24,000 nucleotides of DNA from positions 423,254 through 447,253 of the forward strand of contig NC_023062.1 of NCBI RefSeq assembly GCF_000508245.1, in the 5' to 3' direction. How positions within the stretch are numbered: position 1 is the first letter of the stretch; each line of letters begins with the position of its first letter. Under the pieces are notes generated by a model. It was not told the DNA's origin. It saw only the letters and a program-made list of their open reading frames with translations, and ran no database searches. The translations under genes were made by a program, and so were the position numbers. This stretch comes from Mycoplasma ovis str. Michigan (GTDB lineage Bacteria > Bacillota_I > Bacilli_A > Mycoplasmatales > Mycoplasmoidaceae). Shown here piece by piece: positions 18,390-24,000 of this stretch.

Positions 18390-21300
18390 ATGGATTACCA
18401 AGATCTAATAGAACTATCTGAAGAGATAGAAATTAATAAATCTAAGCCAGTAACTGAAGAAGAATTAGAAAGCTACATAATATCTTTATTTGAGTCTCAA
18501 GGATACTTTCACTCTAAAGGTAGTGATATCAAGAGAGAGAATTATTATGAAGTTTTACTAATAGAAGATCTCACTAACTTTTTAAAACCTAGATATCCAA
18601 AGTTAGATACATACTTTGAAATCTATTCAGATATCAGACACATTGCTGATGATCTGCATAGAGACGATAAAAACTTCTATGAATTCAATAGAGACTTCTT
18701 TAAAAAATTAAGTGATGAAATAATCTACACTAGGGAAAGAGATGGAGAGAAACTCCCCATTTCATTAATAGATTTTCAAAATCCAGAAAATAATATTTTC
18801 AGAATTGTTAATCAATTTGCAGTTGAAGGAAAAAACCCTAGAAGAGTAGACTTAGTAGTCTATATTAATGGGATTCCATTAGTTGTCTGAGAACTTAAAT
18901 CTCCTAGTGATGGGCATGTTGGATTAGTTACAGCCCATCAACAGCTCCAGCTTTATCAAAAAGAAATACCAGATCTTTTCAAATACAATGCCTTCTCAGT
19001 GCTATGTGATGGAATTCATCATGTCAAATATGGAGTTAACTGAGAATCTCTTGAAAACTTCATGGAATGAAAAAAGATCTCAGATGAGGTTAGTTCGGAG
19101 GGAAAAGATAGACTAGATGTCTTAATACAAGGACTTTTTGCGAAAGAAAGAATTATTAAGTACATTGAGAACTTTATTTGATTCAAAGACAGCGATCCCA
19201 AAGAAAAGATTATTGGTAGATACCCTCAATTCTTTGGAGCTACAAAGATGTTTGCAAGTATTTTGAAAAACTTGAAACCTAAAGGATCTGGAAAGGGAGG
19301 AATATATTTTGGAACTACAGGGTGTGGTAAAAGCTACACTATGTTATTCCTTTCTAGGCTACTCCTTAATTCGGAGTCTCTAAACACACCTTCAATTCTC
19401 ATAATCTCTGACAGAGTAGAGATTAGTGAGCAATTATGTAAATTATTTCAAAGTTCTACTAATTATCTTGGAGACAAGAATATTGAAGATATTTCTTCTA
19501 GACAAAAATTGACTTCATCTTTAAAGAAATTAGTACAGGGGGGAGTATTCTTAACTAATCTACAGAAATTTGAAGAAAGTTGTGAGATACTTTCTGAAAG
19601 AAACAATATTATTTGCATTTCCGATGAAGCTCATAGATCAAACCATAATTTTGATGTTGAGCTGAAAGAAGGGGGAGGAGAAACTTGTCCATTTGCTAAA
19701 AGACTTCACGAGTCTTTACCTAATGCAACTTATGTAGGTTTCACCGCTACACCCATAGATCAAACTATGGATGTATTCGGAGAAATAGTTGACCGATATA
19801 CGATGGACGAATCCATCAGTGATGGATTCACTGTGAAACTTAAATTGGAAGTTAAAAAAGGATGATTAAAGCTTCAAGATGAGATCGCGCTAAAAATTAT
19901 AGAAAAATACAGAGAAGCGAGGGAAACGGGAACTAGTGAGGAATGCATTGAAGAGGATCAAAGAATAAGAACAAAACTAAAGGCTATTTGTAATGTTCAA
20001 AGCAGAATAGAAAAAATAACTGATGATATTGTTGAACATTATGAAGCCAGAGTTAACTCTGGTGAAACTGTTTGCGGAAAAGCAATGATAGTTACTGTTG
20101 GTAGAGATATTGGATATAAAGTTTGAAGAAGGATCAGGGAAATAAGGCCAGAATGAACAATTAAAGAAAATGAAGCGGGAATGTCAAAGGTTCAATTGGT
20201 TATGACAAGAGCCAAAAGTGATGGGGAAGAAATGTACCAATTAATAGGTAATGATGAGTACCAAAAAAAATTAGCTAGAGAGTTCAAAAAGGAAGATTCT
20301 GATTTCAAGATAGCAATTGTTAGTGATAAGTGATTAACTGGATTTGATGCTCCTTGTTTAGACACTATGTACCTAGACAGAATATTTCAAGATAAAACGC
20401 TTATTCAGGCTGTATCCAGAGTTAATAGGAAATATCTAAGAAAAAACTATGGTTTAGTTGTTTCTTATTGGCCTATTGAAAAATACTGAAAAGATGCTAT
20501 TAACAAAGTAGGGGGTAGTCAAAGAGGTGGATGTACCTTGGAGGAAGTCATCTCTGCAACTAAAGATAAATTGGAGTTGTTGAATAAACTGTTTCACGAT
20601 TTTGATAGAAAAACATTTTTAAGCATCCACAACGAAAATGATCAATCAGGTATGGTAGTTAGTTACATAAGGGAAAAAGGTAAACAGTTTCAAGACAAAT
20701 TTAGTGAATTATATTTCGAATTCATTCACTGATATGACAGTTGATCTAGTGTTGAATTAAGTAAGGAATTAGGTCAAGAAAGGGCTTTCTATAAGCTAAT
20801 TTACAAATACTGATCAAGACATATTAAAAAAAGCTGGACTCCTATGTCAGAAAAAACTAAACAAGAAATATCAGAACATATGCAAAACATATTTTTTTCT
20901 GGGGAAATGTCCCAGCATTCTTTTGGTTATTTAAATGTTTCTTTCCCCTCCGAGCAAGAATATAAAAATAAAGAAGTTACCAGAGATGACAAACAAAGAA
21001 AAGCTAAAAAATTAGGAGAAGCTCTTGCGAAAATACATAAAAGTTTTGGGAGAAACTTTTTAGAAAGATTGGCTAAATTGCAAGATGAATATGAATCTCT
21101 GTATGAGGCTCAAGGTAGGTTAGAAGCTATTGAAGATGAGGAAGAAAGAAAAAAAGCTATGCAGGAATTTAATTTAGAAGAAAGACTTAAAGCTCTTGAT
21201 GAAAAAAGAGATGAGTTAGTTGATGAGGGTTACAGAAAAATGAAAGAGCATGAAATTAAAGGATGAACTCAGGAAGAGCAAGTCTTCTTTGATCAACTGA

Positions 21301-21569
21301 AAGAATTTAATGAAAATTTTGGTTTTGGACTAGAAGAGAAACAATTGTTAGATTTCACAAGAGATCTAAATGAACTTTGAAATGAAAGAAAGGGATGAGG
21401 AGATCCAATCAAAAGATTCACTTTATTATCTCAGTTAAAAATGGATATATATAACCTAATAGATAAATACAACTTTTATATTTCAAATGAAACATTTGAT
21501 AACACAGATGTTGTGATTGTTGAAGAACTAGTGGATTGTTTTAGAAGAATGACTGAATCAAGTTTGTAA
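18390..21569 (+). CDS. hsdR: Type I restriction enzyme, R (endonuclease/helicase) subunit, 1059 codons
   Basis: Track fragments 18390-18890, 19248-19865, 20538-20732 and 20844-21266 are in one frame, and the gaps contain only TGA stops. Nuclease motif VDLVVYINGIPLVV-W-ELK. Helicase motifs GTTGCGKSYT (I), DEAHRS (II), FTATP (III), LTGFDAP, QAVSRVNR (VI). Coiled-coil C-terminal region. Confidence 0.92.
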
Positions 21570-22306: not shown

Positions 22307-22339
22307 AAAAAATATAAAGGCGGCGCCATTCTGGGCGCC
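22307..22339 (-). terminator. GC-rich hairpin plus T-run downstream of hsdS
   Basis: GGCGCC-attctg-GGCGCC (22322-22339), an all-GC 6-bp stem in an AT-rich spacer. On the minus strand it is followed by gcctttatatttttt. It lies about 80 nt past the hsdS stop. Confidence 0.45.
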
Positions 22340-22420
22340 AAAATTGATTATATATCATTCATTATTTTTTATGCAAAAAATAAAAGATTTATTTGAAAAT
22401 TAAAAACTCTAAAAGTAAAT

Positions 22421-23594
22421 CTATTCTAAGTCCTCTATTCGGCATTTTTGTAATCTCAAACACTTAGAAATTATTTGTTCATTATTTTTTTGTAGTTCAA
22501 AAATTGGACTACAAATTTGGTTGAATTTGTCGATTAGGTGCTGGGGCGGAAGTTTGACTTTAAAGCTTTGGAATTTTAAAAGATTAAAGGAAACTATATC
22601 AGTCGAATTGTTCAATAATCTCTTTAATTTTGTGACATTTTCCCTAATCAAAAAGTAAATATAAGAAATAGGCAAATTGTTTTTGCCCCCCCCACTCAAT
22701 GACCCACAAATTGGGAGAAATAATTAATGTCTTGAGTTGATTGATTAATAAACGCCCACCTTGACGACCAGCCGTTCCAACAAATATCAATCCATTTTCG
22801 GGAATTAATTTAGCTTTGCATCTTTTAAATCCGGCTTCAGTCAATTGTTCAGAAGTTGAATTTAAAAACTTGCATTCAAAAATGTCTTTTGTTCTTAAAA
22901 AAGGTATTCCCCCTTGCTTACAAAAGTAGAGTTTTTCTAAATAAAAATTGGATTTAGGGGGCTGAGAGCCTTTCAAAACTTGAAACAAATTACCTAGAAT
23001 TTCACTGGTGAATTCTTCTAAATTGTCGAACAAAATATGGTAATAAGATTTCATCCACCCTTCAAGTAATTCGTTAATTTTTCTTTTGTTTTGTATTAAC
23101 TTCTCGATTGTTTGATATTTGTAGACTATCTTTTTTTGTTCTTCTAATGCAGGAACTACAATCGGTATAGAACAAAATCTTTCATAGGTCAATTCTTCTC
23201 TTACCCCCCCCGTAGAGAGATATCTAGCAAGCTTATCGAATGCAATTCTTTTAATTCACAATTCCAGATAATGATTTATTAATTTATCTGGTTGTTTTAT
23301 GTAGAAAACTACATAAGTATTAGAAATTTGAATAGCATCTAGTTGACTGTTGAGAGCGATGGAGAGTTTATCTCCATTCCTTGCTGTAGATGGTTTGTAA
23401 CAAAACTGATCTCTTTTGACAATTTGTAATTTATTCTTAATGTTGGATAAATTTACAATGCGACTTTCCACAAAACATTTTTCAATACTTAATCCCTTAA
23501 TTGGTATGTTTTTGTTATAAATCGCTACCCCTTTAACTCTTTCAATATAACCTCCTAATTTATTCATCCTCTTTAAAAAGCTATTTTTGACCAA
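22421..23594 (-). CDS. hsdS: Type I restriction-modification specificity subunit, frameshifted at a G8 tract (currently truncated after TRD2)
   Basis: ORFs 23256-23594 and 22644-23192 join in frame through TGA 23256-23258. The central conserved region is CSIPIVVPALEEQKKIVYKYQTIEKL. ORF 22421-22699 carries the distal conserved region (FKVKLPPQHLIDKFNQICSPIFELQKNN) but is in another frame. The frames meet at the G8 run (C8 on +, 22686-22693), and G7 would fuse them. Confidence 0.85.
22686..22693 (-). repeat. Homopolymer G8 on the coding strand (C8 on +) at the hsdS TRD2 / distal conserved region junction
   Basis: Read directly: ttttgccccc cccactc. The two overlapping hsdS ORF fragments change frame exactly here. 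Confidence 0.95.
23204..23211 (-). repeat. Homopolymer G8 on the coding strand (C8 on +) at the hsdS TRD1 / central conserved region junction, currently in frame
   Basis: Read directly: ttaccccccc cgtagag. It encodes ...LSTGGVREEL... Confidence 0.95.
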
Positions 23595-23772: not shown

Positions 23773-24000
23773 TTGAAGTTTTCGGGGGGGGCATTAACGA
23801 AGGGGAAAATTGCTGGTGGGTGTGTAGTACTTCTGGGTGGTACTACTTTTACAGGCTTAGTTTGTACAGAAATTTATAAAAATGGAGTATCTAGTGCTTT
23901 AGCAAAACTAGGAGGTTGGGTTGTTGAAATTTTTAATTGAAATGGAACTTCTTCTTCACAATCTTCATCACAACCTATAGATCCTATCCCAGCAATAACT
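23773..24000 (+). CDS. Hypothetical surface or membrane protein (possible lipoprotein), 5' part, with a G8 tract in codons 4-7; continues past the right edge
   Basis: The frame is open from 23761 to the window end: (TTG)KFSGGALTKGKIAGGCVVLLGGTTFTGLVCTEIYKNGVSSALAKLGGWVVEIFNWNGTSSSQSSSQPIDPIPAIT. There is a basic n-region, a hydrophobic Gly-rich h-region, a Cys, then a Ser-rich stretch. No ATG is present. Candidate starts are TTG 23773, ATT 23767 and ATA 23764. Confidence 0.5.
23784..23791 (+). repeat. Homopolymer G8 inside the leader-coding region of the 23773 gene
   Basis: Read directly: ttcggggggg gcatt. Confidence 0.95.

What the first reader, a model, noticed from the sequence alone, without database searches (positions are those of the whole stretch)
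23204..23211. Second G8 tract in the same hsdS at the TRD1 / central conserved region boundary allows a multi-state specificity switch
Seen: a second G8 (ACG GGG GGG GTA, LSTGGV) lies just upstream of the central IPIVVPALEEQ region and is currently in frame. Inference: slippage here would terminate HsdS after TRD1, producing a half-HsdS. Half-HsdS proteins are known to be able to dimerise and recognise symmetric targets. Together with the distal tract, this one gene could sample at least three products: TRD1 only, TRD1-TRD2 without the distal helix, and full length. In the mycoplasma type I systems I recall (for example M. pulmonis hsd loci), specificity is varied by DNA inversion. Two independent homopolymer switches placed at both domain boundaries is a different design.
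Basis: inference. Interest (0 to 1): 0.65.

Follow-up and report, generated by a model that had tools for sequence, protein, structure and literature searches.

The report
Second slippery G8 tract in hsdS
A run of eight G's inside the DNA-specificity gene (hsdS) of a sheep blood mycoplasma changes length between otherwise near-identical samples, so it is a real slippage-prone switch, but it most likely turns the gene off rather than creating a new half-size specificity protein.

Summary
The G8 tract is real. It lies at 23204-23211 on the minus coding strand, as codons 119-122 ACG GGG GGG GTA (T-G-G-V), and is in frame. It is not a chance feature: the window has three G8/C8 runs against 0.02-0.08 expected, and local codon usage gives P about 6e-4 for this spelling. 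The M. wenyonii orthologue writes the same four residues as ACA GGA GGA GTT.

The window matches Mycoplasma ovis str. Michigan. Two other M. ovis-like assemblies are 99.2-99.95% identical here, yet carry G7 and G6 at this site with identical flanks. None of about 40 A/T runs of 6-8 nt changed length. The tract is therefore length-polymorphic in nature.

The half-HsdS idea fails. The tract sits in a loop inside TRD1, 20 residues before the central helix (141-185). G7 gives an immediate TAA and a 121-aa product. G6 or G9 gives a 42-residue out-of-frame tail. Neither product keeps the helix that known half-S proteins (about 185-208 aa) need.

The best reading is an ON/OFF gate stacked on the conserved distal tract. 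All three samples are currently OFF overall. This is a known mechanism with unusual number and placement of tracts, so interest is moderate.

The parts
23204..23211 (-). Proximal G8 tract, codons 119-122 (ACG GGG GGG GTA; T-G-G-V), in frame in this genome
   Evidence: Length is G7 in L006 and G6 in L007, with identical flanks.
23201..23203 (-). TAA that becomes the in-frame stop when the proximal tract is G7 (or G10), giving a 121-aa (122-aa) product
   Evidence: P0030, 121 aa, ends ...YLSTGG.
22686..22693 (-). Distal G8 tract (TGG GGG GGG; W292-G294), currently out of frame with the C-terminal 88 codons; G7 or G10 would be ON
   Evidence: Allele GA+G7 in L007 and GA+G8 in L008. The same Gly-Gly column carries G7/G8 in M. 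wenyonii L002 and L003.
22421..23567 (-). hsdS, full-length coding potential (381 aa if the distal tract were G7); the current product is 307 aa, ending at stop 22644-22646
   Evidence: Pfam Methylase_S; PDB HsdS matches; closest relative is the M. wenyonii restriction endonuclease subunit S.
23013..23147 (-). Central conserved helix (residues 141-185), lost in every proximal-OFF product
   Evidence: AF2 model: helix 141-185, with TRD1 pLDDT 80-94.
23190..23192 (-). TTG (codon L126) just after the G7 stop; gene callers start a downstream ORF here. A possible re-initiation site (speculative).
   Evidence: the ORF listing ORF 22644..23192; called gene 5234-5548 in L006.
22321..22340 (-). Terminator-like GC hairpin about 80 nt after the full-length stop codon (22421)
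18390..21569 (+). hsdR, intact (1059 aa, 15 TGA-Trp codons), convergent with hsdS; no hsdM in the window
   Evidence: Pfam HSDR_N/ResIII/SWI2_SNF2/T1R_D3-like on the identical protein; tblastn with an HsdM finds nothing.

Best explanation
The tract is a slipped-strand-mispairing hotspot inside the type I specificity gene hsdS of Mycoplasma ovis. It was created by spelling a conserved Thr-Gly-Gly-Val loop of TRD1 with G-ending and G-rich codons. Only lengths 8 (or 5 or 11) keep the frame. G7 or G10 puts a TAA directly after the tract, giving a 121/122-aa product. G6 or G9 adds a 42-residue out-of-frame tail. All OFF products lack the last 20 residues of TRD1 and the whole central helix that holds HsdS together and docks HsdM, so they are predicted to be inactive. 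The proximal tract therefore acts as an ON/OFF gate for the whole subunit. It is layered on a second, evolutionarily older G tract in TRD2, which decides between the 307-aa truncated protein and the 381-aa full-length protein. Shown: the tract, its frame consequences, its non-random codon spelling, its natural length polymorphism, and its position in the fold. Inferred: reversibility within a population, inactivity of the short products, and any effect on methylation or restriction.
For: Tract and frame. Non-random origin: 3 G8 runs against 0.02-0.08 expected, and P = 5.6e-4 from codon usage. The M. wenyonii orthologue has ACA GGA GGA GTT at the same T-G-G-V, and four other paralogues have no tract there. 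Natural variation: G8 in the window, G7 in L006 and G6 in L007. L006 (1129 nt) has 0 substitutions, one 6-nt intergenic indel and the tract change. L007 has 4 substitutions. L008, from the same sample as L006, is 99.95% identical over 8304 nt. None of about 40 A/T runs of 6-8 nt, and neither G6 run, changed length. The window genome was sequenced with Illumina at 1000-1500x (PMC3907730). Fold position: the tract is in a loop after helix 108-117, and the central helix is 141-185. The Foldseek and HMM matches to HsdS chains cover TRD plus helix. The gene is not simply decaying. Every frame disruption in the M. ovis samples and in M. wenyonii L002 and L004 sits at a G tract. The 88 codons downstream of the distal tract are open and 65% identical to L002, with pN 0.23 against pS 0.83. 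A terminator-like hairpin follows the full-length stop. G7/G8 tracts recur in all four M. wenyonii hsdS paralogues.
Against: No sample has a complete ORF. Michigan is proximal ON and distal OFF. ERZ27230476 is G7 OFF and distal OFF. SRR5812416 is G6 OFF and distal OFF. There are only three samples and no read-level data, so switching within a population and reversibility are not shown. No hsdM lies within the 24 kb or the 5 kb beyond it. The proximal tract is absent from every relative examined, so selection for it, as opposed to a recent accident at a Gly-Gly site, is not established. Inactivity of the 121-aa product rests on a model and on analogy, not on an assay.
Confidence: 0.7

Rival explanations
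1. One reading: slippage at the proximal tract yields a TRD1-only half-HsdS that dimerises and recognises a symmetric target. With the distal tract, one gene would then have three specificities.
For: Truncated HsdS can work as dimers in NgoAV and in engineered type IC systems (PMC9577141, PMC7383803). Slippage does terminate the ORF after most of TRD1.
Against: The functional truncations keep the central coiled coil (NgoAV 208 of 410 aa). Atack et al. note that the coiled coil lies immediately before the SSR in their cases. Here the stop is at residue 121 and the helix is 141-185. Half-size S chains in the PDB are 184-196 residues. The tract also lies inside the Pfam Methylase_S match.
Confidence: 0.07
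2. hsdS is a decaying pseudogene in M. ovis. The tract differences are neutral indels at a mutable site with no biological role.
For: All three samples are OFF overall. No hsdM is nearby. The proximal tract is lineage-specific.
Against: All disruptions are confined to G tracts. There are no other stops or indels in the 1.15 kb in any sample. The out-of-frame tail shows pN/pS of about 0.28 against M. wenyonii. hsdR next door is intact and identical in two samples. With two tracts each drifting over three frames, roughly 1 in 9 genomes would be fully ON, so 0 of 3 is unremarkable.
Confidence: 0.15
3. The length differences are sequencing or assembly artefacts at a poly-G run.
For: Homopolymers are error-prone, and the two comparison sequences are short metagenomic or Logan contigs of unknown coverage.
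Against: These are three independent assemblies, and the reference is Illumina at 1000x or more. The neighbouring G8 at 23784-23791 and the C8 in the DUF31 protease gene have the same length in every sample that covers them. No A/T run changed length. Errors would not normally give both -1 and -2 as consensus.
Confidence: 0.05
4. Split-subunit or re-initiation model. After the G7 stop, translation restarts at TTG codon 126. In G6 alleles it may instead start from an upstream TTG in the other frame. The result is an N-terminally truncated CCR-TRD2 protein that acts alone or re-associates with the 121-aa fragment.
For: Gene callers predict such ORFs: L006 5234-5548, and P0029, which enters the main frame through the G6 tract. 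The break falls in a surface loop.
Against: The support is only non-ATG starts chosen by software. The distal tract is OFF in the same samples. No experimental precedent was found in the papers read.
Confidence: 0.03

Closest known systems
NgoAV type I system of Neisseria gonorrhoeae (poly-G in hsdS1)
   Same: A poly-G tract inside hsdS whose length differs among isolates (6-9 G) and decides between truncated and full-length HsdS (PMC9577141).
   Different: The NgoAV tract lies after the central conserved region, so the 208-aa product is active and the switch changes specificity. Here the proximal tract is 20 residues before that region and the distal tract is in mid-TRD2. There are also two tracts in one gene.
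SSR-containing hsdS genes surveyed in REBASE, including AG[n] hsdS of Mycoplasmataceae (Atack et al., PMC7383803)
   Same: Simple-repeat frameshift switching of hsdS, common in mycoplasmas; some strains have several repeat-bearing hsdS genes.
   Different: In that survey the repeats are reported to lie 'always' between the two TRDs, and the cut-off was at least 9 for mononucleotides. G8 tracts such as these would not have been counted. No hemoplasma is mentioned ('wenyonii' and 'ovis' both have 0 occurrences).
Ca. Mycoplasma girerdii HsdS loci with two length-variable dinucleotide repeats (PMC5476646)
   Same: More than one length-variable repeat per HsdS locus in an uncultivated mycoplasma, with the majority allele often OFF. 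Variation was shown within a population.
   Different: Those are dinucleotide repeats rather than poly-G, in a different lineage. The paper says the consequences for HsdS are hard to predict. Whether both repeats sit in one ORF was not checked here.
Poly(G) switch in M. agalactiae CpG methyltransferase genes (PMC9465063)
   Same: A mid-gene poly(G) of 6-11 G that varies by -2 to +1 within populations and truncates the product before its active domain: an ON/OFF switch in an R-M-related gene of a ruminant mycoplasma.
   Different: It is a type II-like methyltransferase gene, not a type I specificity subunit, and has a single tract.
hsd inversion systems (M. pulmonis, S. pneumoniae SpnD39III)
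   Same: Phase-variable type I specificity in host-adapted bacteria.
   Different: Those systems use recombination between several hsdS copies. The window has only one hsdS and no further hsdS-like sequence.

Membership tests
Type I R-M specificity subunit (HsdS) | Methylase_S (PF01420) target-recognition domains | tested here: met
   The 307-aa product gives E 1.1e-9. The frame-repaired 381-aa sequence gives E 1.7e-13 with two stretches.
Type I R-M specificity subunit (HsdS) | TRD - long conserved helix - TRD - helix architecture resembling solved HsdS structures | tested here: met
   Profile search against the PDB: 1yf2 E 6.9e-39, plus 7vru, 7bst, 5ybb, 2y7c. AF2 model: TRD1 1-140 plus helix 141-185. 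Foldseek matches the same chains. TRD2 in the truncated product is modelled poorly (pLDDT below 50).
Type I R-M specificity subunit (HsdS) | Genomic association with hsdM and hsdR | tested here: inconclusive
   An intact hsdR is convergent and 850 bp away. No hsdM is in the window or in the 5 kb beyond it. In M. wenyonii one paralogue follows an hsdM-like ORF that I identified by eye and did not test (L005).
Simple-sequence (homopolymer) phase-variable gene / contingency locus | Repeat tract within the ORF, long enough to slip, whose length sets the reading frame | tested here: met
   G8; the frames for G5-G11 were enumerated.
Simple-sequence (homopolymer) phase-variable gene / contingency locus | Tract length differs among otherwise near-identical isolates | tested here: met
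   G8, G7 and G6 in three samples at 99.2-99.95% identity. Other homopolymers are stable.
Simple-sequence (homopolymer) phase-variable gene / contingency locus | High-frequency reversible switching within a clonal population | not testable with these tools
   This needs read-level or single-cell data. No reads are available here.
NgoAV-type specificity-switching hsdS (truncated half-HsdS active as dimer) | Tract located after the central conserved (coiled-coil) region, so the truncated product is TRD1 plus CCR | tested here: not met
   The proximal stop is at residue 121 and the helix is 141-185. The distal tract is at residues 292-294, inside TRD2.
NgoAV-type specificity-switching hsdS (truncated half-HsdS active as dimer) | Different methylation motifs for different tract lengths | not testable with these tools
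   No methylome data are available.
Inversion/shufflon-type hsdS variation (M. pulmonis, SpnD39III) | Several hsdS copies or TRD cassettes able to recombine (inverted repeats and a recombinase were not searched for) | tested here: not met
   tblastn of six hemoplasma HsdS sequences hits only 22421-23567 in the window.

The most novel reading that the evidence does not exclude
The two tracts form a true combinatorial epigenetic switch with three functional states in M. ovis. The states are: null; a 307-aa TRD1-CCR protein acting as a symmetric half-S dimer; and the full-length asymmetric HsdS. A fourth state may arise from re-initiation at codon 126. One orphan hsdS would then give an uncultivable blood parasite several methylomes or restriction barriers from two independent poly-G clocks placed inside TRD folds. 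This layout is not covered by published hsdS repeat surveys.
Probability: 0.12. Interest if true: 0.6.

Novelty: new variant of a known kind. Interest (0 to 1): 0.4.

Why it matters
Hemoplasmas cannot be cultured, and how they persist in blood is poorly understood. Poly-G contingency tracts appear to mark their variable genes: hsdS paralogues and small membrane proteins. This hsdS shows natural length variation at two tracts. If the switch is active, M. ovis populations would be mixtures of cells with and without this type I specificity, which would alter the barrier to foreign DNA and possibly methylation-dependent gene expression. It also shows that surveys requiring at least 9 nt and a between-TRD position miss a class of intra-TRD G7/G8 switches.

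Tried and rejected
I modelled the 307-aa product instead.
- A second homologue search, with the 121-aa fragment, returned nothing, so it added no samples.
- A JGI metagenome scan with a pattern bridging the tract found 0 matches.
- Exact look-ups of ten predicted alternative products (G5, G6, G9, G10 and G11 proximal states; G7, G9 and G10 distal states; two alternative starts) found none in the collection.
- The genome-contig scan returned only M. wenyonii INIFAP02. The window's own genome was not returned, so no other hemoplasma species could be compared.
- Two more M. ovis-like Logan samples (SRR35836840, SRR9040418) were found through the neighbouring protease gene. Their contigs stop in a paralogue repeat before reaching hsdS.
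- I considered that hsdS might be inverted relative to the M. wenyonii arrangement, where hsdS and the membrane gene are co-directional. I rejected this as untestable, because the flanks share no detectable similarity.
- A search for the sample accessions in papers found nothing, so the hosts of the two comparison samples are unknown.

Full report
**What is there**

The window uses the mycoplasma genetic code (TGA = Trp) and has 32.7% G+C. Read with table 4, the minus strand from ATG 23567 encodes a type I specificity subunit:
- Pfam Methylase_S matches it.
- The best database relative is 'restriction endonuclease subunit S [Mycoplasma wenyonii]' at 51% identity.
- A profile of the family hits solved HsdS structures, with 1yf2 at E 6.9e-39.

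Window 23204-23211 is C8 on the plus strand, which is G8 in the gene. It spans codons 119-122, ACG GGG GGG GTA (T-G-G-V), and is in frame.

[quoted passage not shown] The annotated product is therefore 307 aa, and G7 or G10 would give 381/382 aa.

An intact hsdR (18390-21569, 1059 aa) converges on hsdS. No hsdM is present in the window.

**Source organism**

Exact look-ups of window proteins place them on a 702,511-bp contig. A neighbouring protein's cluster carries the name Mycoplasma ovis str. Michigan. The genome paper gives the same chromosome length and reports Illumina coverage of 1000-1500x (PMC3907730).

**Is it more than chance?**

- The window has three G8/C8 runs, all within 1.1 kb, against 0.025-0.083 expected.
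- In 6367 codons of confident genes, GGG is 13.8% of Gly codons and ACG is 2.9% of Thr codons. The spelling ACG GGG GGG therefore has P = 5.6e-4.
- Only 1 of 33 Gly-Gly pairs in those genes is GGG-GGG.
- The Gly-Gly itself is a conserved HsdS motif (consensus SxGGVRE), so the amino acids are constrained. The closest orthologue (M. wenyonii INIFAP02, L002) writes the same T-G-G-V as ACA GGA GGA GTT.
- Four other hemoplasma paralogues have no run at this site.

The homopolymer is thus a derived state in the M. ovis lineage, requiring three synonymous A-to-G changes in a row.

**Natural variation (the decisive result)**

The 90% cluster of the window's HsdS has two other members from independent samples:
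- P0030 is 121 aa and ends ...YLSTGG. It comes from ENA assembly ERZ27230476, contig L006.
- P0029 is 198 aa and comes from Logan SRR5812416, contig L007.

Their DNA is 99.4% and 99.2% identical to the window. At the proximal tract the window has G8, L006 has G7 and L007 has G6, with identical flanks.

Over 1129 nt, L006 differs from the window only by this G and one 6-nt intergenic indel. A second contig of the same sample (L008) is 99.95% identical over 8304 nt, with no gaps.

The distal tract varies too. The window has GAG-T-G8. L007 has GA-G7 and L008 has GA-G8 on a shared allele. Both of those are out of frame, because that allele needs G6 or G9.

Across these comparisons none of about 40 A/T runs of 6-8 nt changed length, and neither did the two G6 runs. 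The third G8 (23784-23791) is unchanged. The instability is therefore specific to the hsdS G8 tracts and is not generic assembly noise.

**Consequences of slippage**

- G7 or G10 puts TAA (23203-23201) directly after the tract, giving 121 or 122 aa.
- G6 or G9 adds 42 out-of-frame residues, giving 163 or 164 aa.
- G5 or G11 stays in frame, with one Gly fewer or more.

An AlphaFold model of the 307-aa product is confident for residues 1-170 (pLDDT 70-94). It shows helices at 98-105 and 108-117, the tract residues in the following loop, a short strand, helix and strand at 125-135, and the long central helix at 141-185. Foldseek matches this TRD-plus-helix unit to HsdS chains and to the half-size S protein Esub1, whose chains are 184-196 residues.

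Proximal-OFF products therefore lack the end of TRD1 and the whole central helix. The documented active truncation, NgoAV HsdS1, is 208 of 410 aa and retains that region (PMC9577141). Atack et al. state that in their surveyed genes the repeat lies between the TRDs, immediately after the coiled coil (PMC7383803). The half-HsdS reading is not supported for this tract. The simplest prediction is loss of function.

**Switch or pseudogene?**

No sample has a complete ORF, which keeps the pseudogene model alive. Four observations argue against simple decay:
- Every frame disruption in the M. ovis samples, and in M. wenyonii L002 and L004, is at a G tract. There are no other stops or indels.
- The 88 codons downstream of the distal tract, out of frame in both species' assemblies, are the best-conserved segment: 65% identity, pN 0.23 against pS 0.83.
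- A terminator-like hairpin follows the full-length stop, not the truncated one.
- All four M. wenyonii hsdS paralogues carry a G7/G8 in TRD2. Two of these are in the same Gly-Gly column as the M. ovis distal tract.

G tracts of 7 or more are 16 in 52 kb of those loci against about 0.3 expected. Many sit at the N-termini of small membrane proteins. This is the pattern of contingency loci.

**Comparison with what is known**

The mechanism, homopolymer slippage switching an R-M gene, is well established:
- NgoAV (PMC9577141).
- Many SSR-bearing hsdS genes, including AG[n] in Mycoplasmataceae (PMC7383803).
- Poly(G) of 6-11 in M. agalactiae CpG methyltransferase genes (PMC9465063).
- Two length-variable repeats per HsdS locus in Ca. 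M. girerdii (PMC5476646).

What differs here is that two poly-G tracts lie in one hsdS, both inside TRD folds at Gly-Gly sites rather than after the coiled coil, and in a hemoplasma. The REBASE survey required at least 9 nt for mononucleotide repeats, so these G8 tracts would have been missed. Hemoplasma genome papers mention repeat-rich HsdS paralogues only in general terms (PMC3196708).

**Verdict**

The tract is a real, naturally length-variable site. Novelty is a new variant of a known kind, and interest is moderate (0.4).

Noticed in passing
window 23784-23791 (+), ORF from TTG 23773: A third G8 lies in codons 4-7 (S-G-G-A) of a divergently transcribed 258-aa glycine-rich gene. No signal-peptide or membrane prediction was run. 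The gene belongs to a paralogue family, with a second copy at the far end of L006. The tract is G8 in both the window and sample ERZ27230476.
   Followed up: partly
window 6255-6671 (-) and 5818-6222 (-); tract 6660-6666: Two tandem paralogous small ORFs sit between ORFs I took, by eye, to be the ribosomal protein genes rplW and rplB. [quoted passage not shown] C8 would give MSPPTLLKKILTS..., matching the paralogue's MLLKKILTS start. This looks like another OFF-state homopolymer switch.
   Followed up: partly
L002-L005 (M. wenyonii INIFAP02): All four hsdS paralogues carry a G7/G8 in TRD2, at two different positions about 40 codons apart. Small ORFs starting with glycine-rich hydrophobic segments carry G8/C8 tracts too. 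In total there are 16 tracts of 7 or more in 52 kb, against about 0.3 expected. L002 is one G short of full length, and L003 is in frame.
   Followed up: partly
L008 end (= window 22693-22697): The 30-kb contig of ERZ27230476 ends 4 nt past the distal tract. The other contig of that sample starts only at window 22878. This may be an assembly break caused by heterogeneity at the tract, or it may be low coverage.
   Followed up: no
window 23697 (intergenic, between hsdS and the divergent gene): There is a 6-nt TATTTT indel between the window and L006 in the shared 200-bp divergent upstream region. It could alter promoter spacing.
   Followed up: no
L006/L009 beyond the window end (about 24000-28400 in genome terms): The neighbourhood continues with a DUF31/Myco_protease gene that carries an invariant C8 (Pro-Pro) in four samples, and with an NgoFVII-like restriction endonuclease. 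ORFs with a similar N-terminal sequence also flank hsdS in M. wenyonii (similarity by eye, not tested). This suggests a conserved defence and variation island.
   Followed up: partly
L007 318-914 (P0029): In the G6 allele a gene caller starts an ORF at a TTG in the other frame, 12 codons upstream. The ORF reads through the tract into the main frame, predicting an N-terminally truncated CCR-TRD2 protein. This is probably a software artefact, but it would be an alternative product if real.
   Followed up: no
window 22685-22695 versus L007 and L008: The distal tract exists as two allele types. Michigan has GAG-T-G8 followed by CAAAAAC. The other two samples have GA-Gn followed by CAAACAC. The in-frame length therefore differs between alleles: G7/G10 for the first and G6/G9 for the second.
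   Followed up: yes
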